A stretch of DNA of 63,985 nt, filler included, from Candidatus Hydrogenedentota bacterium (GCA_040752395.1; 5 parts of 5 records of this genome joined end to end with filler, not necessarily neighbours in it), one strand, 5' to 3'. Numbered from the whole stretch's first letter, positions 2,044-54,689 are shown. A program made the numbers and translations. The notes: generated by a model from the letters alone, not told the origin.

Positions 2044-2267
2044 AAGGCACCTGCCTGCGCCGCACTCCGCCGCAGCAGGCAAGCAGAGGCACAGAGGCAC
2101 AAAGTATGAAAAGAGTCGTGAGTCGCAAGTCGTGAGTCAAAACAGGACTCGAGACTCAAGACTCAAGACTTTTCAGCAGGCTCTGGGCTTTTGGCTCCAG
2201 CCGGCTGTACTCCGTAGCCCGTAGCCTGTACCCCGAATTATTAGAGTTACAGCGTTTTTCAGAGGAG
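2044..2267 (+). repeat. Modular intergenic repeat copy R1 (GGCACARA, GAGTCGT/GACTCAA, GGCT/TAGCC arrays, cap)
   Basis: Near-identical blocks at 26146-26232 and in reverse within R12, R14 and R19; ends in CAGAGGAG 4 nt before the accD ATG. Confidence 0.92.
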
Positions 2268-2271
2268 TATT

Positions 2272-3135
2272 ATGACCTGGTTTAAAAGGATCAAACCCGA
2301 GGTAATAAACGTAAAACCTATTCAGAAGCTTGTGCCTGATGGCACCTGGCTGAAGTGTATTAAATGCAATGAAATGTATCCTGCAAAAGAGCTTGAAGAT
2401 AATTTGAATGTCTGTCCTTTATGCGGTTATCATAACAGAATAAAATCTTCTCAGTGGATAAAGGTACTGTGCGATAACGGTAGTTTTATATCGATGTTTG
2501 AGGAGATAGTTTCAGATGACCCGCTGGAATTTGTAGACAGTAAACCCTATACAAAGCGTATTGAAGAGTCAAAACAAAAAAGCAACGTATCAGATGCTAT
2601 TATTTGTGGTGAATCAAAAATCTGTAACCATCGGGTTAGTTTAGGGGTTATGGATTTCTTTTTTATGGGTGGTAGTATGGGGAGCGTAGTTGGTGAAAGG
2701 TTTTTAAGAATAGTTGAGTTCGCTATTCTTAACAGCCTACCTTTAATAACGGTTTCATCTTCAGGTGGTGCGCGGATGCAAGAAGGTTTGTTATCTCTTA
2801 TGCAATTAGCGCGCACATCAGCTGTTATATCGAGATTTCAAAAAGCTGGAGGCTTTTATATCTCAATAATGGCTGACCCTACGACAGGCGGTACCACCGC
2901 GAGCTTCGCATCATTAGGTGATATAATTTTAGCTGAACCAGGTGCCTTGATAGGTTTTGCAGGACCGCGTGTCATAGAACAGACGATAAGACAGAAATTA
3001 CCCCCAAAATTTCAGACCGCTGAATTTTTACAGGAACATGGTTTCGTTGATTGCGTTGTCGAAAGAAAAAAATTGAAGAAAACTATCCATTTGTTAATCC
3101 ATTCCTTTATCGAACATACACCACCTGATGAATAA
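2272..3135 (+). CDS. accD: Acetyl-CoA carboxylase carboxyltransferase beta subunit
   Basis: Zinc finger WLKC..C...CPLC; motifs FMGGSMGSVVGE, SGGARMQEG and GFAGPRVIEQ. Confidence 0.97.
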   Translation: MTWFKRIKPEVINVKPIQKLVPDGTWLKCIKCNEMYPAKELEDNLNVCPLCGYHNRIKSSQWIKVLCDNGSFISMFEEIVSDDPLEFVDSKPYTKRIEESKQKSNVSDAIICGESKICNHRVSLGVMDFFFMGGSMGSVVGERFLRIVEFAILNSLPLITVSSSGGARMQEGLLSLMQLARTSAVISRFQKAGGFYISIMADPTTGGTTASFASLGDIILAEPGALIGFAGPRVIEQTIRQKLPPKFQTAEFLQEHGFVDCVVERKKLKKTIHLLIHSFIEHTPPDE

Positions 3136-4339
3136 CTTTATATACCAATCATTATTAAAATCTTCATTATGTTATAGAATCAATCCCTCATTAAAGCAGA
3201 TTAAACGATTTATAAATAAAATAGCTAATCCACAGAATAGTTTAGATGCCTCCTGTATAATTGCTGGTACCAATGGTAAAGCATCTACATCTTATTCTTT
3301 ATATTTTCTTATGAGAAACATTGGATTAAATGTTGGCTTATATACTTCCCCACATATTTTTGATTTCAGGGAGAGAATTATTTACAATGATAGAAAGATT
3401 AAAGAACAGGAGATTAAAGATATATATAGAACATTATGTAGATTAAAAGAGTTTAATGAACTTACGTTTTATGAAAAGATGACTGCAATAAGTTTTATAT
3501 ATTTTAAAGAGATGAAGCCTGATTTCACAATATTCGAAGTCGGGATGGGCGGTCGCTGGGATGCTGTAAGAGTTATCCCCTCCAAAACCGTTTTTTTAGT
3601 CAATGTCTCTATAGACCATTTAGAATATCTGGGAAAAGACAGAAAAACTATCCTCCTGGATAAAGCTTTTATAACTCATAATAGAGAGGAGGCAATAATA
3701 GGGTTCAGGATGGACAGAAATAGTATTAAAAGTGAGAGATGTTATTGTTATGGTGAAGAATTCTATTTTAATAAAGATAATCAATTCATTTTATTTAGTG
3801 AAAAGACTGATTTTGGTTACCCGGAATATTTACCCCCATTATATAAAAGCGATGTCGCATCAGCATTATTTTATCTGACAAAAAATTTTAATAAAAGAGA
3901 CGTTGTTCGTAGTTTTAAAAAAACAGTATTTAAGTTTCCTGCACGCTTTGATTTTATTCGTACCAATGTTATCCTTGATATAGCTCATAACCCCGAGGCT
4001 TTTTTCTATCTTATGAAAGAGTTATTAAGCAGGTTCTCAGGTAATATTTCTGTTGTATTTGGTATCTGCAAGGATAAAGAGATAGAATTGATCTTGCCTA
4101 TCCTGAAACATAAACGTATAAAAGTCATTGTTTATGAGCCTGAGGCTTATGAAAGAACTTTGCAAAAAAAAGATTTGATAAAACTTCTTGAAAAATATAG
4201 GATATTATATTATGATAAAATATGTTTAAAAGAATTACGAAAAGAAGACTGTCTTTGTATTACAGGTTCAATAATGACTGTATCAAAGTTCTGCAGAGAA
4301 TACGGGTATAGTCCGAGCATATTCTGGAATGAGGGTTAA
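3128..4339 (+). CDS. folC: Folylpolyglutamate synthase/dihydrofolate synthase
   Basis: Motifs IAGTNGK, YTSPH, EVGMGGRWDA and LDIAHNP; accD-folC synteny. Confidence 0.9.
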   Translation: MNNFIYQSLLKSSLCYRINPSLKQIKRFINKIANPQNSLDASCIIAGTNGKASTSYSLYFLMRNIGLNVGLYTSPHIFDFRERIIYNDRKIKEQEIKDIYRTLCRLKEFNELTFYEKMTAISFIYFKEMKPDFTIFEVGMGGRWDAVRVIPSKTVFLVNVSIDHLEYLGKDRKTILLDKAFITHNREEAIIGFRMDRNSIKSERCYCYGEEFYFNKDNQFILFSEKTDFGYPEYLPPLYKSDVASALFYLTKNFNKRDVVRSFKKTVFKFPARFDFIRTNVILDIAHNPEAFFYLMKELLSRFSGNISVVFGICKDKEIELILPILKHKRIKVIVYEPEAYERTLQKKDLIKLLEKYRILYYDKICLKELRKEDCLCITGSIMTVSKFCREYGYSPSIFWNEG

Positions 4340-4418
4340 TCGAAATGCCGAAAAACAACCACTTGCTAATAAACAATTGGTTCAGGGACAAGAAACAAGA
4401 TAAGGAGAAAATTTTCAA

Positions 4419-6196: not shown

Positions 6197-6217
6197 ATGT
6201 AACACATCAGTTATAAT

Positions 6218-6412
6218 AAGATAACGAAAGAAGCAAGAAGCAAGAAGTAAGCACAGAGTAGTGAGGGTCACAAGACCCGTAGTATAGCCGGGTTTACCCA
6301 TCCATAGATAGGCACAGAGGCACAAAGGCACAAAGTATGAAAAACTAATATCTTGCTTCTTGCTTCTTGCTTCTACTTGATATTATTATAGTTACAATGT
6401 TTTTCAGAGGAG
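6218..6412 (+). repeat. Modular repeat copy R2 (AAGAAGC arm, GGCACARA x3, TTGCTTC x3, cap)
   Basis: 6311-6412 matches 7720-7821 at 101 of 102 positions. Confidence 0.92.
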
Positions 6413-6421
6413 AGGGGAGAC

Positions 6422-7696
6422 TTGAGAGTTTTTATAGAAAAAATAGTTCATGGCGGATTTGGGCTTGCAAGAACTGAAAAAGAGGGTGTTATTTTTGTAC
6501 CATATACTTTGGCAGGCGAAGTGGTAGAAGTCGAGTTAATGGATATTAATAAAAATAATCTTAAACTTGCCAAACCACTTAGTTTTAACGTTAAATCAGA
6601 CTCAAGAATTGAACCTGAGTGCAGATATTTTAAAGAGTGCGGTGGATGTCATTTCCAGCATATGGATTATAAATCTCAAAAACTGGCTAAATTCTCCATA
6701 CTCGATGATTGTTTAAAAAGAATAGGAAAAATTGATTATGATAAATATGAGTGGGTAGATGCAATGGATAAGTTTGGATATAGAAATAATTTTCAGTTTA
6801 AAGTAGACGAAAATGGGCATCTTGGTTTTTATAAAATGTTCTCCAATGATATAGTTCCCGTTGATAAATGTTTATTAGCAAACGAGAATGTGAATAAAGT
6901 TATTAAAATACTTAATAATTTATTAAGTAACGATAATAGACCCGATGAGATTGATATAAGAGTTTCACCACAAAATGAAATCTATCTTATTTTCAAATTT
7001 GAAAAAAATAAAATGAAGCAGCAAATGAATTCTATTTTGAAAAATATTGAGCACGTTGCTGGAATAAAGGTGGTAAATATCAATAATGATAGAGAAGAAA
7101 GCAGCTTTTACTATAGCGATGCTATGCAATTTGATATATCTGAGTATAAAATGGTGGTATCGTATGACTCTTTCTTTCAGATAAATTATAAAGTACTTAA
7201 TAAAATCGCTGGCTTAATTAATGATCTTATAAATTCTATCAAAGAATTACCATCAATAATGATTGAGCTTTATGGCGGTGTAGGTACTTTTAGTATATTA
7301 AACTTTTATAAAAAATTTGATTTCGTAATAATGATAGAGGAGAGTCATAAGAGTTGTGATAATGCACTGACTAATCTTGAATCAAATGACATAGGGAATG
7401 TTTCAGTATGGAATGTTGATGTTGAGACAGGACTTGCACGAATAATGAGACAGGATTTGGATTCTGTCTTTATTTTTATGGACCCGCCACGTACAGGACT
7501 GACACAACCAGTTATAAAGAGCATCCTGAGACAAAAACCTGAGTGGATTTTATCATTATCTTGTGAACCTTCTACTTTTGCACGTGATTTATCTTTTCTT
7601 GTTAAAGAATATGAGATAGTAAAAATGTATGTTATTGATATGTTTCCGCAGACAAGTCATATGGAAACATTAACGTTATTAAAGAGAAGTTGTTGA
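6422..7696 (+). CDS. rlmD: 23S rRNA (uracil-5)-methyltransferase, RlmD/TrmA family
   Basis: TRAM-like N-terminus; Fe-S motif CRYFKECGGC; motifs FFQIN, DPPRTG, SCEPSTFARD and DMFPQTSHME; TTG start. Confidence 0.9.
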   Translation: MRVFIEKIVHGGFGLARTEKEGVIFVPYTLAGEVVEVELMDINKNNLKLAKPLSFNVKSDSRIEPECRYFKECGGCHFQHMDYKSQKLAKFSILDDCLKRIGKIDYDKYEWVDAMDKFGYRNNFQFKVDENGHLGFYKMFSNDIVPVDKCLLANENVNKVIKILNNLLSNDNRPDEIDIRVSPQNEIYLIFKFEKNKMKQQMNSILKNIEHVAGIKVVNINNDREESSFYYSDAMQFDISEYKMVVSYDSFFQINYKVLNKIAGLINDLINSIKELPSIMIELYGGVGTFSILNFYKKFDFVIMIEESHKSCDNALTNLESNDIGNVSVWNVDVETGLARIMRQDLDSVFIFMDPPRTGLTQPVIKSILRQKPEWILSLSCEPSTFARDLSFLVKEYEIVKMYVIDMFPQTSHMETLTLLKRSC

Positions 7697-7821
7697 AAGA
7701 TTGAAAGATTCAAAGGAAAGGCACAGAGGCACAGAGGCACAAAGTATGAAAAACTAATATCTTGCTTCTTGCTTCTTGCTTCTACTTGATATTATTATAG
7801 TTACAATGTTTTTCAGAGGAG
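7693..7821 (+). repeat. Modular repeat copy R3 (AAGATTGA, GGCACARA, TTGCTTC, cap)
   Basis: Direct repeat of R2. Confidence 0.92.
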
Positions 7822-9216
7822 ATGATACGAAGTGTGGCTATGAGTAAGATACTCATTGTTGATGATAATCTTGAACACGCACAGGTTATAGCTGAAGCAC
7901 TTGGCAAAAGCGGCTGGACTGTTAAACTTGCAACATCAGATTTCCAGGCATTCAAAATATTGGATAGTGATAATGAAATAGCGTTGGTTATAACTGATTT
8001 AAAACTATCAGGACATTATGATGGTATAGCTCTTATGGAAGAAGCAAGAAAGAGGTATCCGTTTCTTGAATTCCTTGTTATCACAGGCTATGCTACGGTT
8101 GAAAATGCTGTTTTAGCAATGAAAAAGGGTGCATACGATTATCTCACCAAACCATTAAATCTTGACGAACTCAGACTCGTCGTATCGCGCGCAATGGAGA
8201 AACAGGAGATACTACTCCAGAATATTGAGTTAAAACAATACATAGAAGAAAAATACGGGCTTGAGAATATTATAGGTCGATCTGAGTCTATGTTAAAAGT
8301 TTTTAAAATAGCAAAACAGGTTGCACCTACCAACGCCAATGTTCTTATAGAAGGAGAATCAGGCACAGGCAAAGAACTGATTGCAAAGGCGATACACCAG
8401 TACTCACCACGTAAAAACAGGCTTTTTGTAGCACTTAATTGTGCTGCTATCTCTGAGGGAATCCTTGAAAGCGAGTTATTTGGTCATGAAAAAGGTGCAT
8501 TCACAGGCGCAATACAACGTAGAATAGGCAAATTTGAAGTTGCAAGCGGCGGAACGCTTTTTCTTGACGAAGTAGGTGATATGCCAGAGCAGACACAGGT
8601 GAAACTATTAAGGGTTATTGAGGAAAGGGTTATAGAAAGGGTAGGGGGTAATCTGCCCATAACTGTTGACGTTAGAATTATCGCAGCTACAAACCAGAAC
8701 CTTGAAAAACTTGTCCGCGACGGAAAATTCAGAGAAGATTTGTATTTCAGATTAAAAGTTGTAACCATCGTTATCCCACCTTTAAGAGAAAGAAAAAAGG
8801 ATATACTACTTCTTGTAGATTACTTTATAAAGCAGTTATCAAAAGCTCATAAAAAAGATGTTACAGGCATCTCAAAAGATGCTTTAGACATCTTCATTAG
8901 ATACGATTGGCCAGGTAATGTAAGACAACTCAAAAACATTCTTGAAAGTATGATCGTTATAGCACAGAAAGATATCCTTGATAAAGAGCTTATCCCTGAA
9001 GAAATTCTTGGTGATAATGTTATTAAACCTGATAAAAAATATTTACAGAACTTTTTCGGAATGAAACTTGAGGATGTTGAAAGATGCCTTATCCTTAATA
9101 CACTAAAAGAAACTAATGACAACAAGAAAGAAACAGCCTCTTTACTTGGTATAAGCGAGAGAACACTATATAGAAAACTTAAAGAATATTCAATAAAAGG
9201 CGGTGACACATCATAG
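7822..9216 (+). CDS. Sigma-54-dependent response regulator (REC-AAA+-Fis HTH); start may be 7840
   Basis: Receiver ILIVDD; motifs GESGTGKE, GAFTGA and WPGNVRQL; C-terminal HTH. Confidence 0.95.
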   Translation: MIRSVAMSKILIVDDNLEHAQVIAEALGKSGWTVKLATSDFQAFKILDSDNEIALVITDLKLSGHYDGIALMEEARKRYPFLEFLVITGYATVENAVLAMKKGAYDYLTKPLNLDELRLVVSRAMEKQEILLQNIELKQYIEEKYGLENIIGRSESMLKVFKIAKQVAPTNANVLIEGESGTGKELIAKAIHQYSPRKNRLFVALNCAAISEGILESELFGHEKGAFTGAIQRRIGKFEVASGGTLFLDEVGDMPEQTQVKLLRVIEERVIERVGGNLPITVDVRIIAATNQNLEKLVRDGKFREDLYFRLKVVTIVIPPLRERKKDILLLVDYFIKQLSKAHKKDVTGISKDALDIFIRYDWPGNVRQLKNILESMIVIAQKDILDKELIPEEILGDNVIKPDKKYLQNFFGMKLEDVERCLILNTLKETNDNKKETASLLGISERTLYRKLKEYSIKGGDTS

Positions 9217-9255
9217 CGTTATTGCGTGATTGAGTGTTTGGTGTTCGGTGTCTTT

Positions 9256-10716: not shown

Positions 10717-10717
10717 T

Positions 10718-10940
10718 GGCGTTTAGTGTTCGGTGTTTGGTTTTGGGTTATCGGTAAACCGACCACTGAACACCCAGAACCGAAAACCGAATATCTTGCT
10801 TCTTGCTTCTACTTGATATTATTACACTTACAGCGTTTTTCCCTGTAGCCTGTCCTGATACTTCTCACTTCCCACTTTTGCCTTTTAACTTTTAACTTTC
10901 TGGCTGATATTATTAGAGTTAGAATGTTTTTCAAGGGAGG
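10718..10940 (+). repeat. Modular repeat copy R4 (GTGTTCG/CCGAAHA inverted arrays, TTGCTTC, partial cap, ACTTCYC, TTTTAAC, cap)
   Basis: Shares blocks with the other copies; the cap ends just before the LysM ATG. Confidence 0.88.
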
Positions 10941-10946
10941 CATTTT

Positions 10947-11393
10947 ATGATTAAAAAAATTATAGTTCTTACGCTGGTTTTTAGTTTCGGATTTTGTAGC
11001 ACCTTTTTAGCAACAGAAAATGAATTATCAAAAAAAGTAGAGGCTACACTAAAAAAGCTCGAGGAATTGAATAAAGAAGTTCAGGCTTTGAAAGAAGACA
11101 TTGCTAAACTTAAAAAAGAAGCAGAAGATACAAATACACCATTTATTAAAACAAAAACTGTCAAAGAAAAGAAGACAAGCACTCTTATTTCTGATGATAG
11201 CACCATAGAATACATAGTAAAACCAGGTGATACTTTATCAAAGATAGCACAAGACCATTATGGTAAATCTTCATTATGGAAAGATATATTAGAGATAAAT
11301 AAAGACATAATATCATCACCACAAAAACTAAGAGCAGGTATGAAGATAAGATTATATAGAAACGAGGCACAAAGGCACAAAGGCACAGAGTAG
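10947..11393 (+). CDS. Secreted coiled-coil plus LysM peptidoglycan-binding protein
   Basis: Signal peptide; YIVKPGDTLSKIAQDHYG...W..I...N. Confidence 0.9.
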   Translation: MIKKIIVLTLVFSFGFCSTFLATENELSKKVEATLKKLEELNKEVQALKEDIAKLKKEAEDTNTPFIKTKTVKEKKTSTLISDDSTIEYIVKPGDTLSKIAQDHYGKSSLWKDILEINKDIISSPQKLRAGMKIRLYRNEAQRHKGTE

Positions 11394-11630
11394 GGAAAAG
11401 ATAGGAGTTAGGAGTTCGTAATAATAGATCCGAGCTCCGAGCTTTGAACTCCGAACTTCGAATTTTTTCGAAGAAGTACTCATGATCGCGGGTTGCGCTC
11501 TACACAATATATGAAAAACTAAGGATGATATGTTGGCTTCAGGCTCCGGGCTTCGGGCTCCAGCCGGCTGTAGTCCGTAGCCCGTAGCCTGTACCCCGAA
11601 TTATTAGAGTTACAGCGTTTTTCAGAGGAG
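11365..11630 (+). repeat. Modular repeat copy R5
   Basis: GGCACAAA x3 overlapping the LysM 3' end; GGAGTT/AACTCC inverted arrays; CTCTACAC linker; GGCT..CAGCCGGCTG..TAGCC; cap identical to that of R1. Confidence 0.9.
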
Positions 11631-11732
11631 GATTTAGAAAGAGTCGATATTATGCCTGAGCAGGTGTTCACGAATTTAGACAAACTGCTTATTATATATG
11701 AAAGGATGTATACAGTTTTTTGGACAATTTAT

Positions 11733-15944: not shown

Positions 15945-15997
15945 AGACTAAAAATAATATTTGAAATTTATTACGTCAATAGATAAGATAATAAAAC

Positions 15998-16031
15998 GAT
16001 ATCATTAGAGTTACAATGTTTTTCAGAGGAG
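15998..16031 (+). promoter_or_regulatory. Stand-alone repeat cap (R6) carrying the Shine-Dalgarno of mtnA
   Basis: GATATCATTAGAGTTACAATGTTTTTCAGAGGAG, 5 nt before ATG 16037. Confidence 0.8.
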
Positions 16032-19454: not shown

Positions 19455-19488
19455 TGGAAAGTATCCCGGACATCGTATACCCCTTAAA
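19455..19488. mobile_element. 34-bp element-end-like sequence, exact copy at 55104-55137
   Basis: TGGAAAGTATCCCGGACATCGTATACCCCTTAAA occurs twice. Confidence 0.55.
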
Positions 19489-19680
19489 GAAGTAAGAAGT
19501 GAGAAGTATCAGGACAGGCTACAGTCTACAGGCTACGGACTACAGCCGGCTGGAGCCCCCTATGAAAAGTCTTGAGTCTCGAGTCCTGTTTTGACTCACG
19601 ACTTGCGACTTGTGACTCACGACTCTTTTTATATCATCTTTAGTTTTTCATACTTTGTGCCTCTGTGCCTTTGTGCCTCC
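19489..19680 (-). repeat. Modular repeat copy R7 (no cap)
   Basis: Reverse-oriented GGCACARA, linker, GAGTC/GACTC, CAGCCGGCTG, TAGCC and ACTTCTC blocks. Confidence 0.9.
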
Positions 19681-19784
19681 TTTCCTTCCCTTTAAAGTGT
19701 CTCACGTTTCAGGGGAACAGTATATTTTATTATTAAAAATTTACATAATTTTGTCGATAAATAAGAGGATAGGATATAATATAA

Positions 19785-21151: not shown

Positions 21152-21383
21152 AAAGATTAAAAGATTGAAAGATTCAAAATTTTTCTGATACTTCTCACTT
21201 TTTCAGAGGAGTCGTCATGAGCGCGTTTACGCTCTACACTATTGGGTTATTGGGTTATTGGGTTATTGCGTTCTTGCGTTCTACACAACGTATGAAAAAC
21301 CAGATGTTTGTTTATCTTGCTTCTTGCTTCTTGACTCTTGCTTCTACTTGATATTATTAGAGTTACAATGTTTTTCAGAGGAG
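21152..21383 (+). repeat. Modular repeat copy R8 (AAGATTGA, mini-cap, GGGTTATT x3, linker, TTGCTTC, cap)
   Basis: Blocks match the reverse copy R14 and the caps elsewhere. Confidence 0.9.
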
Positions 21384-21402: not shown

Positions 21403-23079
21403 GTGATTACGAAAATGTATCAATTTAAAGTAGGTCTTAGAAAAAAGATAACAGCGGTCATTGTTGTTTTGATAATTGCTATAATGGGTCCATTAACAGT
21501 TATTAATATAACACAAAATAAAAATCAAAGACTAAAAGAGATGAAAGACCGTGCAATAGCCATTGCAAAGAGTATTGGTATATCTCTCTATGAGCCGCTT
21601 CTAAAAGAAGAACCCCTGGGAACAAAATATTATGTTCTTGCTGAAACGATCTGTCAGGAAGAGGAAGATATAGTATCAGTTGTTATAAAAGATTATGATG
21701 ATAATATTATAGGCCAATATCCTGGAGAGCAAAGAGCGATTATAAGACAGACATATAATATCAGGGTTCCTATAGAATACAGCAACATTGACCTTGGTGA
21801 GATAGAGATGGTTTTTTCACTTAAAAAAGTAAATAGTGAGATTATTAAATTCAGGAATAAAAATATTAGGCTTACTTTAATACTTATGATAATCGGCATA
21901 ATCATCGCACATTTACTTTCTACAACAATTATCAGACCGATTGAAAAATTAGTTAAAGTAACGAAAGTTATAGGTGAGGGTGATCTTGGGCAAAGAGTTG
22001 ATATAAGAACCCATGATGAGATTGAGGAACTCGGTTTGATGTTTAATAAAATGACGGCTAATCTTGCAGAATATCAGAGAAAACTCAGACAGCATATTGA
22101 AGACCTGAAACATCTTGGGAAATTGACACTTGATATCAGTACTCAAATATATCAGGAAAATCTATTAGATATTGTTGTAAAGAATTTTGTTGATCTTGCA
22201 AAAGTTAACAAATGCTCTCTTATGTTACTTAATGAATCAACAAATGAGTTGGTTATGAGATATGGGATCGGCGTGGATGAGCTTGTAAAACATGGTGCTA
22301 CGTTAAAGCTGGGAGAAGGTATTGCTGGTAAAGCTGCAGCAAGTGGTAATTATATTCTTATAGATGATATACTTAAATCTGAAGACTATATAATATTTAG
22401 CGGACAAAAACCGCCACAAAAGTCAGAGGCTTTACTCTCCATCCCATTGCTTATAGAGAAGAAAGTGATAGGTGTTATAACTGTTAATGATAAAAGATGG
22501 GGCGGTACCTTTAGCGAAGCCGAGGTAGATATTTTACTTATGTTTGCCAATCACATTGCAGCTGTAATTCATAATGCAAGACTATATGAGTTAGCTGTTA
22601 CAGATGGTTTGACGTTGCTTTATGTTCATAGATATTTTCAGCTACGAATTACTGAAGAGATTGACAGAGCAAAACGATATGGTCGACCTCTTTCACTATT
22701 GATGCTTGATATTGATAATTTCAAATTATTTAATGATACCTATGGTCATCAGGAAGGAGACAGATTACTTATTAATGTCTCACGTATTATGAAAAGTTGT
22801 GTACGAGTAAATGATATTGTTTGTAGATATGGTGGTGAAGAATTTGCGATCATTCTTGTTGAGACCGAGAAAGAGGGGGCAAAAATTGTCGCTGAACGAA
22901 TTCGTAAAGAGATAGAGGAATTTAAGTTTACCATAGGGAGCGAGCGTCGCGGATCCACAATATCGATTGGGATAGGTACCTGGGAAACAGGCTGGACCAA
23001 GGAGATGTTGATTAATAAAGCGGATAAAGCTCTTTATAAAGCGAAATCTCTTGGTAAGAACCGTGTTGAAATGATATAA
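21403..23079 (+). CDS. Membrane diguanylate cyclase (HAMP-GAF-GGDEF)
   Basis: Two TM helices, HAMP and GAF; motifs TDGLT, DIDNFK and RYGGEEF with RxxD I-site. Confidence 0.95.
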   Translation: MITKMYQFKVGLRKKITAVIVVLIIAIMGPLTVINITQNKNQRLKEMKDRAIAIAKSIGISLYEPLLKEEPLGTKYYVLAETICQEEEDIVSVVIKDYDDNIIGQYPGEQRAIIRQTYNIRVPIEYSNIDLGEIEMVFSLKKVNSEIIKFRNKNIRLTLILMIIGIIIAHLLSTTIIRPIEKLVKVTKVIGEGDLGQRVDIRTHDEIEELGLMFNKMTANLAEYQRKLRQHIEDLKHLGKLTLDISTQIYQENLLDIVVKNFVDLAKVNKCSLMLLNESTNELVMRYGIGVDELVKHGATLKLGEGIAGKAAASGNYILIDDILKSEDYIIFSGQKPPQKSEALLSIPLLIEKKVIGVITVNDKRWGGTFSEAEVDILLMFANHIAAVIHNARLYELAVTDGLTLLYVHRYFQLRITEEIDRAKRYGRPLSLLMLDIDNFKLFNDTYGHQEGDRLLINVSRIMKSCVRVNDIVCRYGGEEFAIILVETEKEGAKIVAERIRKEIEEFKFTIGSERRGSTISIGIGTWETGWTKEMLINKADKALYKAKSLGKNRVEMI

Positions 23080-26003: not shown

Positions 26004-26077
26004 GGGCGGTTAGCTCAGTTGGTTAGAGTGTATGCCTCACATGCATAAGGTCACAGGTTCGACTCCTGTACCGCCCA
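26004..26077 (+). tRNA. tRNA-Val(CAC), CCA not encoded
   Basis: Acceptor stem GGGCGGT/ACCGCCC; anticodon arm TATGC-CTCACAT-GCATA; T-loop GGTTCGACTCC. Confidence 0.95.
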
Positions 26078-26078
26078 C

Positions 26079-26232
26079 TATTGTGTTATTGTGTTATTGC
26101 GTTCTTGCGCTCTACACAAAGGATGAAAAACTAAAGATGATATAAAAAGAGTCGTGAGTCGTGAGTCAAAACAGGACTCGAGACTCAAGACTCAAGACTT
26201 TTCAGCAGGCTTTGGGCTTTTGGCTCCAGCCG
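26079..26232 (+). repeat. Modular repeat copy R10 directly after tRNA-Val, truncated by the contig end
   Basis: GTGTTATT array, linker, GAGTCGT/GACTCAA and GGCT blocks. Confidence 0.92.
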
Positions 26233-30218: not shown

Positions 30219-30543
30219 CTCCTCTGAAAAACTTTGTAACTATAATAATATCAAGTAGAAGCAAGAAGCAAGATAACGGAAGAAGTGAGAGGTATCAGGA
30301 CAGGCTACAGGCTACGGGCTACAGCCGGCTGGAGCCAAAAGCCCAAAGCCTGCTGAAAAGTCTTGAGTCTTGAGTCTTGAGTCTTGAGTCTCGAGTCCTG
30401 TTTTGACTCACGACTTGCGACTCACGACTCACGACTCTTTTTATATCATCTTTAGTTTTTCATCCTTTGTGTACCCCGTTAGAGAACCTAAGTCAACTTA
30501 TATGTCAACAAAATAACTTTCTCTAAGGGCGTGTAGAGCGCGA
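30219..30543 (-). repeat. Modular repeat copy R12 (near full length, with nested insertion)
   Basis: Linker, GAGTCGT x4, GACTCAA array, GGCT/TAGCC, ACTTC, TTGCTTC, cap. Confidence 0.93.
30474..30531. mobile_element. 58-bp mini-insertion with 12-bp imperfect IR and TGTA target duplication
   Basis: TGTA|CCCCGTTAGAGA...TCTCTAAGGGCG|TGTA; R10 and R14 show the empty site TTTGTGTAGA. Confidence 0.75.
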
Positions 30544-34054: not shown

Positions 34055-34372
34055 CTCCTCTGAAAAACGCTGTAATTCTAATAATTTGGGCTACAGGCTA
34101 CGGACTACAGCCGGCTGGAGCCCCCTATGAAAAGTCTTGAGTCTTGAGTCTCGAGTCCTGTTTTGACTCACGACTTGCGACTCGCGACTCTTTTCATATC
34201 ATCTTTAGTTTTTCATCCTTTGTGTAGAACGCAAAAACCCAAAAACGCAATAACCCAATAACCCAATAGTGTAGAGCGCAAACCACGCTCATGACTCCTC
34301 TGAAAAAGTAAGAAATGAAAAGTAGCAGTAAAATGGAGGATGCAGAAATAATCTTTTAATCTTTGAATCTCT
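34055..34372 (-). repeat. Modular repeat copy R14 (near full length)
   Basis: AAGATT octamers, mini-cap, GGGTTATT array, linker, GAGTC/GACTC, CAGCCGGCTG, TAGCC, cap before PilZ. Confidence 0.93.
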
Positions 34373-34380
34373 CAATATTT

Positions 34381-34767
34381 TTATCTCTGCGCGAATGACA
34401 CCCTCTCAAGTATCACACACACTCTTTCAAGTATCGCCCCTAACTTTGTCATATCTTCACTTAACATTCTAAACCCTTCCCGTTGTCCCTCCTCTATCTT
34501 TACCAGTATTTGTGCCACTTCTCTCTGCACATTAAGAGATGTATTCTGGACATCAAGTGACGTCTTCTGGACATCAAGTGATGTCTTCTGAACATCAAGT
34601 GACGTCTTCTGAACATCAAGTGACGTCTTCTGAACATCAAGTGACGTCTTCTGAACATCAAGCATAGATTTTAATATTTTACTATTCTCTTTCCTTACAT
34701 CACGAATAAACCAGGCTATTGTAACACACCCTGCTACAAGCGTTATCATTGTTATAACCCATTCCAT
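34381..34767 (-). CDS. Small membrane-anchored coiled-coil protein with SLDVQKT heptad repeats
   Basis: N-terminal TM helix; 7 heptads; AGGAG RBS. Confidence 0.8.
   Translation of the reverse strand: MEWVITMITLVAGCVTIAWFIRDVRKENSKILKSMLDVQKTSLDVQKTSLDVQKTSLDVQKTSLDVQKTSLDVQNTSLNVQREVAQILVKIEEGQREGFRMLSEDMTKLGAILERVCVILERVSFAQR
34523..34662. repeat. 21-bp coding tandem repeat
   Basis: TTCTGRACATCAAGTGAYGTC, about 5.7 near-perfect copies plus one degenerate copy. Confidence 0.95.
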
Positions 34768-36139: not shown

Positions 36140-36226
36140 GCCCGTCCTGACACCTCTCACTTCTTCCGTTATCTTGCTTCTTGCTTCTACTTGATATCAT
36201 TAGAGTTAGAATGTTTTTCAGAGGGG
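36140..36226 (+). repeat. Modular repeat copy R16 (3' part with cap), at the contig start
   Basis: CCTGACACCTCTCACTTCTTCCGTTATCTTGCTTC...TTTTCAGAGGGG before nuoJ. Confidence 0.9.
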
Positions 36227-36239: not shown

Positions 36240-36722
36240 ATGACCATTAGCATCACTATTTTGCTTACAGTTCTGTTGATAGTTTCCGCAGGCTTTGTTG
36301 TTCTATCAAAGAATGTAGCAAGAAGCGCCTTCTTCTTATTGTTCACGTTTAGTTGTGTTGCCTGTTTTTATTCTATACTTGGTTGTAATTTTCTTGCTTG
36401 TGTCTGGGTGATGATTTATGTCGGTGGTATCCTTGTTCTTATTATTTTTGGCGTTATCATAACATACACTATACAAAATATTGGTTTTACACAAAAACAG
36501 AATCTAGTTCCTGGTATTATTATTTCTGTCTGTATGTTTATTGTTTTTCTTAAATTAATCTCATCTTCAGCCTGGCCAAAACTGAATATTACATCACAAG
36601 AAGTAAATCAGATAGCAGATACTTTACTCGGGCCGTATATGTTGCCGTTTGAAGCTGTCTCTATCCTTCTTCTTATATGTATGATCGGTGCTGCAACCAT
36701 CGCTCGAAGGAGACTCGAATGA
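36240..36722 (+). CDS. nuoJ: NADH-quinone oxidoreductase subunit J
   Basis: IYVGGILVL and YMLPFEAVSILLL. Confidence 0.92.
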   Translation: MTISITILLTVLLIVSAGFVVLSKNVARSAFFLLFTFSCVACFYSILGCNFLACVWVMIYVGGILVLIIFGVIITYTIQNIGFTQKQNLVPGIIISVCMFIVFLKLISSSAWPKLNITSQEVNQIADTLLGPYMLPFEAVSILLLICMIGAATIARRRLE

Positions 36723-42510: not shown

Positions 42511-42514
42511 AAAC

Positions 42515-45603: not shown

Positions 45604-45610
45604 AAAAGCC

Positions 45611-45819
45611 CTCCTCTGAAAAACATTGTAACTATAATAATATCAAGTAGAAGCAAGAGGCAAGATAACGGAAAGAAAGATAACGAAAGAAACAAGAAGC
45701 AAGATAACGGAAGAAGTGAGAGGTGTCAGGACGGGCTACAGGCTACGGACTACAGCCGGCTGGAGCCAAAAGCCCAGAGCCTGCTGAAAAGTCTTGAGTC
45801 TTGAGTCTTGAGTCCTGTT
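45611..45819 (-). repeat. Modular repeat copy R17, truncated by the contig end
   Basis: GACTCAA, GGCT/TAGCC, ACTTC, duplicated GTTATCTT blocks; cap 7 nt before the ATG. Confidence 0.92.
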
Positions 45820-45919
45820 NNNNNNNNNNNNNNNNNNNNNNNNNNNNNNNNNNNNNNNNNNNNTTAATTAATTAANNNNNNNNNNNNNNNNNNNNNNNNN
45901 NNNNNNNNNNNNNNNNNNN
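45820..45919. other. Artificial contig spacer
   Basis: N-run with TTAATTAATTAA. Confidence 0.99.
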
Positions 45920-46193
45920 GTACTGCAAAAGGCTTGGCGGAACTTGAATAAACAAGGAGCGTCAGGGATAGACAGACAAAGTATCAAAGAGATAGAGGAA
46001 AATGGAGTAGATGAATTTCTGAAAGGGATACAGGAAGAATTGAAAGATGAAAGTTATCGGAAAGCCGTGAGAGGGAAAACTTCAAGCACGGTTTGATGAG
46101 GGGGTGCTGGAGACAGTATGAATGTTAAGTGCTTAACTGGTCGCTTGCGACGTATCACTAACAATATCCTACTGCGCCAGCGCTCTACTCTAC
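45920..46193 (+). mobile_element. Group II intron 3' remnant: RT-0 fragment joined to domains V and VI
   Basis: VLQKAWRNLNKQGASGIDRQS..IQEELKDESYR, then AAAGCCGTGAGAGGGAAAACTTCAAGCACGGTTT (DV, AGC triad) and GTGCTGG..CCAGCGCTCTACTCTAC (DVI and 3' end). Confidence 0.88.
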
Positions 46194-46276
46194 AGAGTGA
46201 ATGCAAAATGCAAAATTTGTCTCATTATTAATGCAGAGGTCAATAGAAAATATTACAAAGTTTGAAAATTAAGTGA

Positions 46277-48013: not shown

Positions 48014-48032
48014 GTTTTAGAGACTTAAAGGT

Positions 48033-50288: not shown

Positions 50289-50323
50289 TTGATTTTTATA
50301 AATAAATCGCTATAATAACTACG

Positions 50324-51763: not shown

Positions 51764-51772
51764 CTATTAATT

Positions 51773-53119
51773 ATGCAAATCCCAGATGAAGTAAAAATAT
51801 TGATAAATAAATTTAATGAAAAAGGGTTTAAATCGTATCTTGTTGGTGGTTGTGTAAGAGATTATCTTATGGGTATAAAAGTTAATGATTATGATTTAGC
51901 TACTGATGCAACACCAGATGAGACAAGCAAAGTATTTAGCCATACGCATCCTGTAGGTGTAGATTTTGGTACGGTCCTTGTCATTATTCAAGGAAAGGGA
52001 TTTGAGGTAACGAGTTTCAGAAAGGATATCGAAACAGATGGTCGTCATGCAAAAGTAGAGTTCTCACGAAATCTTATTGATGACCTGAACAGACGTGATT
52101 TTACGATTAATGCTATAGCTTATGACCCTTTGAAGGATGAGTATATAGACCCTTTTAAAGGGAGAGAAGACATAAAAAACAAGATACTACAAAGCGTCGG
52201 TGATTCACGGAAGAGATTTAAAGAGGATTACCTGCGGATTTTACGCGGCATAAGGTTCGCAGCTCGGTTTAAATTACAGATTGAGCAGTCTGTAAAAGAA
52301 GCTATTTCTGAAACTAAAAACGGTATAAATATTTTATCAGATGAACGGATACGGGAAGAAATTTTAAAATCGCTTGAACAGATTGACAAACCATCAGACT
52401 ATTTTAACTTGATGGATGAATTATCGGTTTTAGCTGTAATTTTACCTGAACTTACAGAGCTTAAAGGCGTAGAGCAGAATTATTATCATCTTTATGATTG
52501 TTTTACACATACAATGGTCTCGATTGACAGAATCAAAAAAAAGTATCCGTTACTCAGACTTACGGTTTTACTTCATGATATAGCCAAACCCGAGTGCAAA
52601 ACTTTTAAAAATGAGAAAAAAGATTTTACATTTACTGGTCATGACAGACAGGGTGCCAATATAGCAAAAAAAATTATGACACGATTAAAATTCTCAAAAG
52701 ACGAGATTAAATACGTAACCACTCTTATTAAAAATCATTTATATATACTTAATGAAAATGCGACCAAACCCGCTATACGCAGATATATTAATAGAATTGG
52801 TAAAGAATATTTGAAAGATATGTTCAGATTTCATTTTGCAGATGTATATTCACACAGATTTGCAGAGCAGAGAAGGAAGGAGGTACTTAATTTTTATAGA
52901 CGGATAAAGGAGGTGCTTAAAGAAGAAAATGTCTTTAGTATAAAGGACCTTGCTATTAATGGTTATGATTTAAAAGATATGGGGTTGGAACCCTCGCCTT
53001 TATTCTCTAAAATATTAAAACATTGTCTTGAGATCGTTCTTGATAACCCAGATAAAAACAAAAAAGAGATATTGATTGATGAAGTGAAAAAATATTTACA
53101 GACTTCTAGCGGGCTGTAG
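51773..53119 (+). CDS. cca: CCA tRNA nucleotidyltransferase with HD domain
   Basis: LVGGCVRD, DYDLAT, RRDFTINA, EDYLRILR and LLHDIAKP. Confidence 0.9.
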   Translation: MQIPDEVKILINKFNEKGFKSYLVGGCVRDYLMGIKVNDYDLATDATPDETSKVFSHTHPVGVDFGTVLVIIQGKGFEVTSFRKDIETDGRHAKVEFSRNLIDDLNRRDFTINAIAYDPLKDEYIDPFKGREDIKNKILQSVGDSRKRFKEDYLRILRGIRFAARFKLQIEQSVKEAISETKNGINILSDERIREEILKSLEQIDKPSDYFNLMDELSVLAVILPELTELKGVEQNYYHLYDCFTHTMVSIDRIKKKYPLLRLTVLLHDIAKPECKTFKNEKKDFTFTGHDRQGANIAKKIMTRLKFSKDEIKYVTTLIKNHLYILNENATKPAIRRYINRIGKEYLKDMFRFHFADVYSHRFAEQRRKEVLNFYRRIKEVLKEENVFSIKDLAINGYDLKDMGLEPSPLFSKILKHCLEIVLDNPDKNKKEILIDEVKKYLQTSSGL

Positions 53120-53254
53120 CCCGTAGCCTGTAGCCTGTCCTGCTACTTCTCACTTCCCACTTCTTACTTCTTACTTTTTCCGTTATCTTGCCTCTTGCCT
53201 CTTGCTTCTTGCTTCTACTTGATATCATTAGAGTTACAACGTTTTTCAGAGGAG
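53110..53254 (+). repeat. Modular repeat copy R18 overlapping the cca stop
   Basis: GGCTGTAGCCCGTAGCC, ACTTCTY x4, TTGCYTC x4; cap 5 nt before ATG 53260. Confidence 0.92.
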
Positions 53255-53259
53255 ATGAT

Positions 53260-54375
53260 ATGAGTAAGGTTTACTTTATTAATATGCGGGCTAATATGAA
53301 AAAAACGAGTTTAAAAAGATTACGAGAATTGGTATTAAAATCTAATTTTGATGAAATTTTAGAAAAGAATGATATTACAGCTGTTAAAGTCCATTTTGGT
53401 GAGAAAGGGAACGTTGCTTATCTGCGGCCGATTTATGTCAGAGAAATAATAGATATGATTAAAGAAAAAGGGGCACGGCCTTTTCTCACTGATGTAAACA
53501 CAATTTATAAAGGCTCGAGATCCGATGCTATTGTGCATTTACAGACAGCGATTGAAAACGGGTTCAATTATGCTTCTATGAACGTACCGATAATTATAGC
53601 TGATGGCTTAAAAGGCGAAGCAAAAATAGATAAACACTTTAATAATTTAAAGCATTATAAAGTCATTGAAATTCCTGAGGCTATATATTATGCAGATAGT
53701 TTAATAGTTTTATCTCATTTCAAATTACATGAAGTAACAGGTTTTGGAGGTGCATTAAAGAATGTTGGCATGGGGTTAGCCACAAAAAGGGGCAAACTAT
53801 CAATGCATTCGACAGTAGCACCTTATGTAAAAGATAAAAAGTGTATAGGTTGTAAATTATGTATTAAATGGTGTCCTATGAATGCTATAGAATTTATCAA
53901 TGGGAGATCAACGATCAATAGTGAAAAATGTATAGGGTGTGGTCAATGTTTAGGAACCTGTCCAGAAGCCGCAATAAGTTTAAAGTGGGACGCATCTTCA
54001 TCTGTTTTACAGGAGAGAATGATGGAGCAATGTTATGCAATGCTCCAAAACAAAAAAGCCAAGGTTTTATTTGTTAATTTTTGTATAGATATAGTGCCTG
54101 AGTGCGATTGTTATGGCTATTCGGACGCAAAAATATTACCTGATCTTGGTATATTTGCATCAACTGACCCTGTAGCCATTGATAAAGCCTGTGTTGATAT
54201 GGTATTGAAGTCCATCCCTCTTGAAAAAACAGAGACAGTGCTTAAAGAAAGAGCAAAAAATAGTGATGTGTTCCGATGGGTGTATCCTGAGATAGATTAT
54301 AATGTCCAGTTTGAGTATGCTTGTAAACTCGGGCTTGGCAGTTTGAAATACGAATTAATAAAATTATCGTTATAA
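53260..54375 (+). CDS. DUF362 protein with 2x[4Fe-4S] ferredoxin domain
   Basis: KVHFGEKGN, GFGGALKNVGMG and two CxxCxxCxxxCP; the ORF-track extension from 53188 is repeat DNA. Confidence 0.92.
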   Translation: MSKVYFINMRANMKKTSLKRLRELVLKSNFDEILEKNDITAVKVHFGEKGNVAYLRPIYVREIIDMIKEKGARPFLTDVNTIYKGSRSDAIVHLQTAIENGFNYASMNVPIIIADGLKGEAKIDKHFNNLKHYKVIEIPEAIYYADSLIVLSHFKLHEVTGFGGALKNVGMGLATKRGKLSMHSTVAPYVKDKKCIGCKLCIKWCPMNAIEFINGRSTINSEKCIGCGQCLGTCPEAAISLKWDASSSVLQERMMEQCYAMLQNKKAKVLFVNFCIDIVPECDCYGYSDAKILPDLGIFASTDPVAIDKACVDMVLKSIPLEKTETVLKERAKNSDVFRWVYPEIDYNVQFEYACKLGLGSLKYELIKLSL

Positions 54376-54478
54376 ATTCCCCATCCAGCTATAAAAATAG
54401 CGGAATTTAGGTTTTAAAAAATAAAAATCAAATATAAAAAATAGCCGGGCACTATTTTATTCAGAAAGTAGGCAAATA

Positions 54479-54689
54479 AATTTGCAATTTGCAATTTACA
54501 ATGGAGCGAAGCGACAAGAAGCAAGATAACTGAAGAAGTGAGATGTATCAGGACGGGCTACAGGCTACAGGCTACGGACTACAGCCGGCTGGAACCCGAA
54601 GCCCGGAGCCTGCTGAAAAGTCTTGAGTCTTGAGTCTCGAGTCCTGTTTTGACTCACGACTCTTTTCATATCATCTTTAGTTTTTCATA
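54479..54689 (-). repeat. Modular repeat copy R19, downstream of tRNA-Pro
   Basis: Linker, GAGTC/GACTC, GGCT/TAGCC, ACTTC, TTGCTTC, then a TCGCTTCGCTCC/TTGCAAA end instead of the cap. Confidence 0.92.

What the first reader, a model, noticed from the sequence alone, without database searches (positions are those of the whole stretch)
2044..54689. Dispersed modular intergenic element built from ordered 7/8-bp arrays (best candidate for an undescribed system)
Seen in sequence: about 19 intergenic loci on four contigs are mosaics of the same blocks in largely conserved order. The order is [AAGATTGA]n, [GGCACARA]n or [GGGTTATT]n, linker (GCGCTCTACACAAAGGATGAAAAACTAAAGATGATA), [GAGTCGT]n, AAACAG, [GACTCAA]n, [GGCTYYG]n, CAGCCGGCTG, [TAGCCYG]n, [ACTTCTC]n, CGTTATC, [TTGCTTC]n, cap. 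Copies differ by block dropout and unit number. The long copies are co-oriented with local transcription, and three contig ends break inside copies. There is no ORF, shared TIR or TSD. Inference: a non-autonomous, possibly RNA-templated or recombinationally shuffled element. It resembles cyanobacterial STRR heptamers and, from my unverified recollection, the short repeats flanking four-helix-bundle and GxxExxY genes, but here several unit types are chained in one composite.
Basis: partly seen in the sequence, partly recalled or inferred. Interest (0 to 1): 0.9.

Follow-up and report, generated by a model that had tools for sequence, protein, structure and literature searches.

The report
Chained heptamer-hairpin leaders before genes
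The spaces between genes of this unclassified bacterium are filled with ordered chains of short-repeat hairpins that end in a shared ribosome-binding leader, and the hairpins match the repeats that flank a small, widespread, poorly understood gene family.

Summary
In the 2.84 Mb genome, 851 clusters of 7/8-bp arrays sit in 444 of 1140 intergenic spaces. Block order is kept in 1143 of 1200 neighbouring pairs. About 95% of copies point the way the flanking genes are transcribed.

The "cap" is a 36-nt leader ending in AGGAG. It has 183 near-exact copies, and a start codon lies 4-12 nt downstream in 186 of 283 looser copies.

Two block pairs, GAGTCGT/GACTCAA and GGCTYYG/TAGCCYG, are arms of stable hairpins with a mismatch every 7 nt.

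The genome's five four-helix-bundle genes (TIGR02436, Avd-like) are flanked by short arrays. Four carry the mosaic's own units: three lie inside inverted pairs, and one replaces the loop of the GAGTCGT/GACTCAA hairpin. In other phyla, 11 of 25 such genes have inverted, mostly 7-nt-period flanks. The same units occur without the gene in 5 of 5 genomes tested.

Best reading: these are transcribed leader and between-gene modules, gene-less relatives of four-helix-bundle cassettes. They probably act as RNA hairpins cut by RNase III and supply the ribosome-binding site. How they spread is unresolved. No RNA data, close relatives or empty sites were available.

This is a new variant of known kinds.

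The parts
2044..2267 (+). Composite B-D-E-F-G-cap. hp1 hairpin is at about 2113-2170, hp2 at about 2176-2235, cap at 2232-2267. The ATG of an AccD-like gene lies at 2272.
6215..6412 (+). Composite: inverted i array (AAGAAGC) after the upstream stop codon, then B, a short linker, I and the cap. The gene start is at 6422. The i and I arrays bracket the spacer.
7693..7821 (+). Composite A-B-linker-I-cap. It fills the whole spacer from the stop codon of the upstream gene to the ATG at 7822.
10756..10940 (+). Two stacked short copies: I plus a degenerate cap, then G/H/L units plus a cap-like leader. They lie before the ATG at 10947.
11365..11630 (+). Composite B-J-K-S module-linker-F-G-cap. It is the hp2-only form and lacks hp1.
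15996..16031 (+). Solo cap, the minimal copy. An ATG follows 5 nt after it and opens a 353-aa ORF.
19487..19690 (-). Composite B-linker-D-E-G-H without a cap, in a divergent spacer.
21152..21383 (+). Composite A-H-S module-C-linker-I-cap, before the GTG at 21403.
26079..26232 (+). Composite C-linker-D-E-F that starts directly after tRNA-Val. It is cut by the contig end inside hp2.
30219..30479 (-). Near full-length copy: linker-D-E-F-G-H-I-cap. Its hp1 hairpin folds at -43 kcal/mol, z = -6.0.
34055..34386 (-). Near full-length copy: A-H-S module-C-linker-D-E-G-cap, before a PilZ-domain gene.
36140..36226 (+). Copy cut by a contig start: (G)-H-I-cap, before a NuoJ-like gene at 36240.
45611..45819 (-). 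Copy cut by a contig end inside the hp1 loop: E-F-G-H-I-I-cap, before an ABC ATPase gene.
53114..53254 (+). Composite G-H-I-cap. An ATG follows 5 nt after the cap and opens a 371-aa ORF (DUF362/Fer4).
54479..54720 (-). Copy linker-D-E-F-G-H-I without a cap. It lies downstream of, and co-oriented with, tRNA-Pro, in a convergent spacer ahead of a terminator-like hairpin.

Best explanation
What it is. The loci are copies of a genome-wide family of transcribed, sense-oriented leader and between-gene modules. Each module is a short tandem array of 7- or 8-nt units, or an inverted pair of arrays that folds into a long hairpin. The hairpin stems are 6-bp helices separated by a mismatch every 7 nt.

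Origin. The hairpins are gene-less counterparts of the inverted arrays that flank four-helix-bundle genes (TIGR02436/PF05635, related to Avd and to the 23S rRNA intervening-sequence protein). In this lineage several such modules have been chained in a fixed order. The chain is fused to a 36-nt leader whose last bases, AGGAG, serve as the Shine-Dalgarno site of the downstream gene.

How it works (inferred). The chain is transcribed as part of the 5' untranslated region or of the spacer between genes in an operon. Its hairpins act as RNA structures, most likely as RNase III substrates that process, stabilise or uncouple neighbouring genes. This follows the pattern of 23S rRNA intervening sequences and the heptamer-repeat hairpin of the Haemophilus hmw leader. 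The cap gives each gene a standard ribosome-binding site.

How it changes and spreads. Unit number changes by slippage. Copies spread by repeated copying from a few source variants, through recombination or gene conversion between the many homologous spacers, or through an unidentified mobilisation step. Which of these applies is open.

Shown versus inferred. Shown: anatomy, copy number, order, orientation, position relative to start codons, hairpin stability and the shared units with four-helix-bundle flanks. Inferred: transcription, RNase III cleavage, the role in expression and the mode of spread.
For: Scale:
- 851 clusters; 444 of 1140 internal intergenic spaces >=30 nt hold a module.

Cap as leader:
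- 183 copies at <=3 mismatches, 0 in the reversed control and 0 in 40 other genomes.
- 216 of 283 looser copies have an ORF >=60 aa starting within 40 nt. In 186 of them the start is 4-12 nt away.
- The cap is absent where no co-oriented gene follows (window 54479-54720).

Orientation:
- Cap 89 same against 4 opposite, linker 51 against 2, hp1 83 against 5.

Position inside transcripts:
- Strong sigma-70-like sites: 1 in 31 kb of element interior.
- In the 130 nt upstream of 171 cap-ending elements: 14 on the sense strand against 4 on the antisense strand.

Hairpins:
- hp1 folds with z = -5.5 and -6.0 (0 of 200 shuffles as good). hp2 reaches z = -2.1 in the better of two windows.
- The sense strand folds better in 231 of 306 hp2 copies and 131 of 210 hp1 copies.
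- The common stem polymorphisms keep G-U pairs on the sense strand. Unpaired positions recur every 7 nt.

Link to four-helix-bundle genes:
- All five such genes in this genome are flanked by short arrays. Four carry the mosaic's own units.
- Three lie inside inverted pairs of those units: GAGTCGT...GACTCAA, AAGAAGC...TTGCTTC and GGCACAAA...TTTGTGCC.
- One, cut by a contig end, is preceded by C-type units. The fifth lies between CACAGTC...GACTGTG arrays, a unit that is not a mosaic block.
- The four alignable paralogues are only 28-38% identical.

Other genomes:
- 11 of 25 such genes have inverted flanks scoring >=12, against 0 of 116 neighbouring ORFs. The flank period is mostly 7.
- The flank unit recurs away from the gene in 5 of 5 genomes tested, with reversed controls 0.
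- Gene-less inverted pairs were seen directly in 2 of these genomes.

Supporting context:
- An RNase III gene is present (204 bits, over the cut-off).
- Published analogue, abstract read: PMC12721329 reports a heptamer repeat in the hmw 5' untranslated region that forms a long hairpin. RNase III cleaves the hairpin and is needed for changes in repeat number.
Against: - No RNA data of any kind could be obtained, so transcription and cleavage are untested.
- There is no compensatory covariation in either hairpin. Observed pairing equals the pairing expected if the arms varied independently.
- Both hairpins are also stable on the antisense strand. A DNA-level or single-stranded-DNA role therefore fits equally well.
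- The sense-strand advantage could come from C-to-T mutation bias on the non-template strand rather than from selection.
- The local fold of the I array with the cap is no better than shuffles (z = -0.3, +1.0, +0.9). Masking of the ribosome-binding site is therefore not supported.
- The second hp2 window tested folds no better than shuffles (z = -0.4).
- The likeness of the linker to the start of four-helix-bundle genes is strong for only 2 of 5 genes (ranks 9 and 33 of 2474; the others rank 207 or lower).
- The commonest hairpin, hp2, has no four-helix-bundle gene with its units in the assembly.
- The assembly is short-read and breaks at these repeats (224 of 698 contig ends). Which flanks belong together across a copy is therefore not certain.
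Confidence: 0.45

Rival explanations
1. A non-autonomous mobile element, like a MITE or REPIN. The composite, or each hairpin module, is mobilised in trans. It inserts at ribosome-binding sites, duplicating or replacing AGGAG. The four-helix-bundle proteins or an unidentified enzyme act as its partner.
For: - Cap variants fall into discrete subfamilies of 16-64 copies, as after bursts of copying from a few masters.
- Copies that begin with the S module have AGGAG 4-14 nt before it in 117 of 144 cases, preceded by unrelated unique sequence. They end with the cap's AGGAG, so the same 5-mer sits at both ends.
- Hairpin modules are present or absent as clean units at fixed junctions such as GATGATATG.
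- The layout resembles RAYT genes and their dispersed REP hairpins: a few genes flanked by inverted copies of a sequence that is dispersed in hundreds of gene-less copies.
Against: - No Y1/RAYT transposase, no RVT_1 and no PDDEXK_3 was found.
- Four-helix-bundle/Avd-like proteins are not known enzymes.
- I saw no terminal inverted repeat for the composite in the copies read, but ran no dedicated search. The AGGAG 'duplication' cannot be told from the element's own ribosome-binding site.
- No empty site could be examined. The genome is the only one of its phylum in the held set.
- The cap is missing where no gene follows. A random transposon would not show that.
Confidence: 0.25
2. DNA-level binding arrays. 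The tandem units are multivalent binding sites, in direct or paired opposite-strand form, for a global regulator or nucleoid protein. They would control transcription of the neighbouring genes.
For: - Passages read in PMC2700814 describe paired opposite-strand sites in Geobacter metallireducens. They are made of four tandem octanucleotides, three tandem repeats of consensus TCTCCGTS[Y], or five heptanucleotides, and are annotated there as predicted global regulator binding sites.
- Arrays here usually hold 2-5 units.
Against: - Strong strand polarity relative to transcription is not needed for duplex binding sites.
- The elements lie downstream of promoter-like sites rather than over them.
- Many fill spacers inside operons, between a stop codon and the next start codon.
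- More than ten unit types in a fixed order would need many regulators.
Confidence: 0.1
3. RNA-templated copying. Leaders are reverse-transcribed from the ribosome-binding end. The resulting cDNAs, 5'-truncated at the hairpins, are integrated before other genes.
For: - All 259 cap-ending copies share the 3' end and have graded 5' extents. Counts by first block: I 45, G 37, C 36, X 24, cap alone 21, E 20, and others.
- One group II intron end sits at a contig start, so a reverse transcriptase gene may be hidden by the fragmented assembly.
- The four-helix-bundle family includes Avd, the reverse-transcriptase partner in diversity-generating retroelements (NF033474 hit; passage in PMC10053308).
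Against: - No RVT_1 match in a genome 93.8% complete.
- Only one group II intron domain V/VI in the assembly.
- Internal dropouts such as C-I-cap or linker-F-G are not simple 5' truncations.
- No poly-A or other retroposition scar was seen.
Confidence: 0.08
4. Functionless by-product. Slippage-prone junk is tolerated in spacers, or the picture is exaggerated by short-read assembly of repeats.
For: - No covariation.
- The assembly breaks at the repeats.
- Units grade into flanking unique sequence. For example, the C array grades into TTTGCGCTCTACAC on both sides.
Against: - About 95% order and orientation constancy.
- Exact placement of the cap before start codons.
- Hundreds of copies are flanked by unique sequence on both sides inside contigs.
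- The same architecture exists in unrelated genomes.
Confidence: 0.05

Closest known systems
Four-helix-bundle gene cassettes (TIGR02436 / PF05635; the 23S rRNA intervening-sequence protein family, related to Avd)
   Same: Inverted short tandem arrays bracket the insert. In this genome three of the five genes sit between inverted pairs of the very units that make up the mosaics, a fourth is preceded by C-type units, and the fifth sits between a different unit. In other phyla the flanks are again inverted arrays, mostly of period 7. Cassettes lie between a stop codon and the next start codon, as the mosaics do.
   Different: The mosaics hold no such gene. Several hairpins of different unit type are chained in a fixed order and fused to a ribosome-binding leader. 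Copy number is hundreds against five genes. Location in 23S rRNA could not be examined, because the assembly has no 23S gene. That RNase III excises 23S intervening sequences is recalled, not from a call.
Heptamer repeat hairpin in the Haemophilus influenzae hmw 5' untranslated region (PMC12721329, abstract read)
   Same: A tandem heptamer array is transcribed in a 5' untranslated region and forms one arm of a long hairpin. RNase III cleaves the hairpin and affects expression. Repeat number changes depend on transcription, the hairpin and RNase III. This is the best functional model for hp1 and hp2.
   Different: That is a single locus in a pathogen's adhesin gene, with one array against a G-rich arm. 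It is not a dispersed family, has no chain of modules and no shared leader. No experiment exists for the present elements.
TAACTGA intergenic direct repeats of marine Beggiatoaceae (PMC4679880; abstract and passages read)
   Same: Heptamer direct repeats of two to six copies, mostly intergenic. Most are in forward orientation just upstream of start codons, before genes of unrelated function.
   Different: That case has one unit type and almost no inverted pairs (169 direct sets, one indirect). [quoted passage not shown] Here the chain ends in AGGAG, many unit types are ordered, and two pairs form hairpins. TAACTGA is not among the 45 commonest heptamer units here.
Paired tandem hepta-, octa- and nonanucleotide sites of Geobacter metallireducens (PMC2700814, passages read)
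   Same: Genome-specific families of tandem 7-9-nt units occur as pairs on opposite strands at variable distance, in tens of intergenic loci. This is the same architecture as the gene-less inverted pairs seen here and in genomes G077 and G035.
   Different: They were read there as regulator binding sites. No chaining, leader or link to four-helix-bundle genes is mentioned in the passages I read. The supplementary PDFs were not seen.
Cyanobacterial STRR heptamer repeats; REP/REPIN with RAYT; pneumococcal BOX elements (all recalled, none read here)
   Same: STRR: dispersed tandem heptamers. REP/RAYT: a gene flanked by inverted copies of a sequence that is dispersed in hundreds of gene-less hairpin copies. 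BOX: a modular element with a variable number of middle units.
   Different: No RAYT gene is present. The genome is the only one of its phylum in the held set, so it is not a cyanobacterium or a pneumococcus. Unit sequences differ. No Rfam family matches.

Membership tests
Four-helix-bundle / 23S rRNA intervening-sequence cassette | Encodes a TIGR02436/PF05635 protein | tested here: not met
   The mosaics hold no such ORF. Only five such genes exist in the genome (family confirmed).
Four-helix-bundle / 23S rRNA intervening-sequence cassette | Insert bracketed by inverted repeats that can form a stem | tested here: met
   hp1 and hp2 are such stems. The D/E, i/I and B/b units bracket real four-helix-bundle genes.
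Four-helix-bundle / 23S rRNA intervening-sequence cassette | Stem cleaved by RNase III | not testable with these tools
   An RNase III gene is present. No RNA data were available.
MITE | Terminal inverted repeats of the whole element | not tested
   None was seen at the ends of the composite in the copies I read, and the inverted repeats that exist are internal, module by module. No dedicated search for terminal repeats was run.
MITE | Target-site duplication | tested here: inconclusive
   AGGAG stands before S-module copies (117 of 144) and at the cap end. It cannot be told from the element's own ribosome-binding site.
MITE | Related autonomous element with a transposase | tested here: inconclusive
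   No Y1 transposase was found. Other transposase families were not searched.
REP/REPIN with RAYT | RAYT (Y1 transposase) gene flanked by the repeats | tested here: not met
   PF01797: 0 matches in a genome 93.8% complete.
STRR (cyanobacteria) | Dispersed tandem heptamers in intergenic DNA | tested here: met
   1904 period-7 arrays against 125 in the shuffled genome.
STRR (cyanobacteria) | Cyanobacterial host and the STRR unit sequences | tested here: not met
   The genome is the sole member of its phylum in the held set. The STRR unit sequences are recalled and were not compared.
TAACTGA repeats | Unit TAACTGA | tested here: not met
   Not among the 45 commonest heptamer units.
Any Rfam family | Match at the gathering score | tested here: not met
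   Whole window: only two tRNAs and one group II intron. A full copy searched at E<=10 gave only chance miRNA-like hits.

The most novel reading that the evidence does not exclude
Four-helix-bundle (Avd-like) proteins and genome-specific heptamer-array hairpins form a widespread two-part system comparable to RAYT and REPINs. Each paralogue recognises its own array type, as RNA or single-stranded DNA, and drives its processing or spread. That would explain why every genome has its own unit and why gene-less hairpins far outnumber the genes. This lineage would be the extreme case. Here several array types have fused with a ribosome-binding leader into one composite. It occupies about 40% of intergenic spaces and supplies the translation start region of roughly one gene in ten.
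Probability: 0.2. Interest if true: 0.9.

Novelty: new variant of a known kind. Interest (0 to 1): 0.72.

Why it matters
Tandem heptamers between bacterial genes have been noted for decades, as STRR, as TAACTGA repeats and as the Geobacter 'binding sites'. None of these has an agreed origin or function. The four-helix-bundle/intervening-sequence genes are likewise common and unexplained.

Here the two are tied together by direct sequence evidence. The same units bracket the genes and build the gene-less hairpins, and this holds in several phyla.

This genome also shows how far such modules can go. One ordered composite with a shared ribosome-binding leader stands before about 180-280 genes. 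If the hairpins are RNase III sites, a large share of the organism's mRNAs would be punctuated by one repeat family.

The link gives testable predictions:
- each four-helix-bundle protein binds its cognate array;
- RNase III cleaves the hairpins;
- repeat number changes with transcription.

My literature searches found no paper that states the gene-array link. Subscription journals and database family notes were not searchable.

Tried and rejected
- Sequencing runs: none was listed, and no RNA holder was listed. No reads could be laid.
- Wider distribution: cap and hp2 patterns gave 0 hits in JGI metagenome contigs and 0 in viral contigs. A full copy gave no match in plasmids. Both patterns gave 0 in the other genomes searched.
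- One stray copy on a 2.2 kb contig of another MAG. Its coding part has no counterpart in this genome, so it gave no orthologous site.
- Group II intron idea: the linker and the intron end share GCGCTCTAC. Only one intron domain V/VI exists in the assembly, so I dropped it as too weak.
- Promoter scan of 20 kb: 82 sites against 78.7 in shuffles, so uninformative. The cap is not a recognisable sigma-70 promoter.
- Masking of the ribosome-binding site by the pyrimidine-rich H/I arrays: the site is mostly paired in whole-element folds (mean unpaired probability 0.25), but local folds are no better than shuffles. Rejected.
- Covariation in hp1 and hp2: none.
- Other genes enclosed by inverted array pairs: 77 pairs 150-1800 nt apart mostly bracket ordinary genes. 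No new cargo family was picked out, and the enclosed proteins were not scanned.
- 23S rRNA: not in the assembly, so an intervening sequence could not be sought.
- Mini-ORFs inside the chain (MSAVCALH..., MKN*, MI*): noted from reading the sequence, not pursued. The 8-nt arrays shift their frame.
- Pentamer prediction for the four-helix-bundle protein: not run, since a pass would rest on likeness to solved Avd.

Full report
**Observation**

The window is five contigs joined by runs of N. They map to contigs C2, C3, C4, C5 and C27 of a 2.84 Mb, 349-contig, 34.8% GC assembly. Tandem Repeats Finder shows the named 7- and 8-nt arrays at the stated places.

With arrays and unique modules turned into tokens, the window holds 15 composites and 5 single arrays. 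They lie on four contigs, with none on the fifth. Three contig ends lie inside copies.

**Scale and chance**

- The genome has 1904 period-7 and 703 period-8 arrays. A genome shuffled in 500-nt blocks gives 125 and 125.
- A few units dominate.
- The arrays form 1345 clusters covering 3.6% of the genome. With unique modules added and stricter classes, there are 851 clusters, 240 of them with four or more blocks.
- Of 1140 internal intergenic spaces of at least 30 nt, 444 hold a module.
- 224 of 698 contig ends lie within 60 nt of one. The repeats are therefore what breaks the assembly.

**Order and orientation**

Neighbouring blocks follow the order A, B or C, linker, D, E, F, G, H, I, cap in 1143 cases and break it in 57. 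Shuffled orders give 50%.

In spaces between co-oriented genes:
- the cap points with transcription 89 times and against it 4 times;
- the linker 51 against 2;
- the hp1 core 83 against 5.

**The cap**

- The 36-nt cap occurs 183 times at three or fewer mismatches. The reversed control gives none, and so do the 40 other genomes searched.
- Of 283 copies at five or fewer mismatches, 216 are followed within 40 nt by the start of an ORF of at least 60 aa. In 186 of them the start is 4-12 nt after the final AGGAG.
- The cap is missing where no co-oriented gene follows, as in the copy after tRNA-Pro.
- The downstream genes are unrelated housekeeping, signalling and transport genes.
- The cap is therefore a shared ribosome-binding leader.
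- Its variants fall into discrete subfamilies of 16-64 copies.

**Hairpins**

GAGTCGT arrays and GACTCAA arrays are imperfect complements around AAAACAG (hp1). GGCTYYG and TAGCCYG arrays are imperfect complements around CAGCCGGCTG (hp2).

- hp1 folds far better than shuffles (z = -5.5 and -6.0). hp2 reaches z = -2.1 in one window and -0.4 in another.
- Across copies, unpaired positions recur every 7 nt.
- The sense strand folds better in 231 of 306 hp2 copies and 131 of 210 hp1 copies. The common polymorphisms are G-U pairs on that strand.
- There is no compensatory covariation.

**Position in transcripts**

Strong sigma-70-like sites are almost absent inside the elements: 1 in 31 kb. In the 130 nt upstream of 171 cap-ending copies they occur 14 times on the sense strand and 4 times on the antisense strand. 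A plain promoter scan was uninformative. The chains therefore most likely lie in 5' untranslated regions or between genes of one operon.

**Link to four-helix-bundle genes**

The genome has five PF05635 genes. One was confirmed as TIGR02436, with a weaker Avd match. All five are flanked by short arrays, four of them by the mosaic's own units:
- one between GAGTCGT and GACTCAA arrays, in place of the hp1 loop;
- one between AAGAAGC and TTGCTTC arrays;
- one fragment between GGCACAAA and TTTGTGCC arrays;
- one preceded by C-type units, at a contig end;
- one between CACAGTC and GACTGTG arrays, a unit that is not a mosaic block.

The four alignable paralogues are 28-38% identical.

The linker resembles the 5' end of two of these genes (ranks 9 and 33 of 2474 gene starts) but not the others.

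**Generality**

- PF05635 genes occur in 57 of 150 other genomes searched.
- At 25 loci from different genomes, 11 have inverted flanks scoring 12 or more, against 0 of 116 neighbouring ORFs. The flank period is mostly 7.
- In 5 of 5 genomes tested, three tandem copies of the flank unit recur elsewhere. Window-match counts were 950+938, 87+54, 24+34, 49+86 and 2+9, with reversed controls 0.
- Fetched regions of two of them show gene-less inverted pairs in intergenic DNA.

**What is absent**

- No Y1 transposase, RVT_1 or PDDEXK_3 gene.
- No Rfam family match.
- No 23S rRNA in the assembly.
- No copies in JGI metagenome contigs, viral contigs or plasmids.
- One stray copy on a small contig of another MAG gave no orthologous site.
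- The genome is the only one of its phylum in the held set, so empty sites could not be sought.
- No sequencing run was listed.

RNase III is encoded.

**Interpretation**

The anatomy is secure. The best-supported function is an RNA-level one: structured leaders whose hairpins are RNase III substrates, and whose cap supplies the ribosome-binding site. This is modelled on the Haemophilus hmw heptamer hairpin (abstract of PMC12721329) and on 23S intervening sequences (recalled).

Spread may be by gene conversion among the many homologous spacers, by an unidentified mobilisation step aimed at AGGAG, or by RNA-templated copying, which the graded 5' extents suggest. None of these is shown.

**Comparison with what is known**

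- TAACTGA repeats share the forward position before start codons, but have one unit and no hairpins.
- Geobacter metallireducens has paired opposite-strand tandem sites, read there as regulator sites.
- Neither paper, in the parts I read, links such arrays to four-helix-bundle genes. Four literature searches found no paper that does.

**Verdict**

- It is a new variant of known kinds, with a bolder two-part-system reading left open.

Noticed in passing
window 45920-46193: A contig starts inside a group II intron. Rfam finds domain V/VI at 46060-46193, and by eye the upstream stretch looks like part of a reverse-transcriptase reading frame (not scanned). It is the only intron end in the assembly. 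The intron ends in GCGCTCTAC, a 9-mer also found at the start of the linker block.
   Followed up: partly
window 26004-26078 and 54725-54801: tRNA-Val and tRNA-Pro are each followed at once, on their own strand, by a copy of the chain. The copies therefore also sit downstream of tRNA genes.
   Followed up: partly
window 34524-34662: A 21-nt tandem repeat of 6.6 copies at 93% identity lies inside ORF 34381-34767 (minus strand). It would encode a 7-residue protein repeat, and the ORF has no Pfam match.
   Followed up: no
window 56941-57030: ARAGORN calls a 90-nt tRNA-Leu inside ORF 56639-57142, but Rfam does not. It is probably a false call.
   Followed up: no
genome G000, whole: All 150 'relatives' offered are related only at domain level. 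A phylum-level search returns this genome alone. It appears to be the sole held member of its phylum.
   Followed up: partly
L051, L052, L054, L055 (genome G077): The loops of gene-less GTAGAAA/TTTCTAC hairpins in an unrelated, GC-rich 6.1 Mb genome share a motif close to TT(G/A)AAACCG. This suggests a conserved loop element there too.
   Followed up: no
many copies, e.g. window 34270-34300 and contig C50:6100-6160: The chain carries an SD-like AGGAG, then ATGAGCGCGG and a GAGCGC/GCGCTC hairpin. Tiny back-to-back reading frames follow (ATGAAAAACTAA, ATGATATGA). They may be relics of gene starts or start-stop sites.
   Followed up: partly
contig C92:3800-4000 (not in the window): GGCACARA arrays lie inside a called ORF, in sense orientation, next to a four-helix-bundle gene fragment. 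Some arrays may be coding, or the gene call may be wrong.
   Followed up: no
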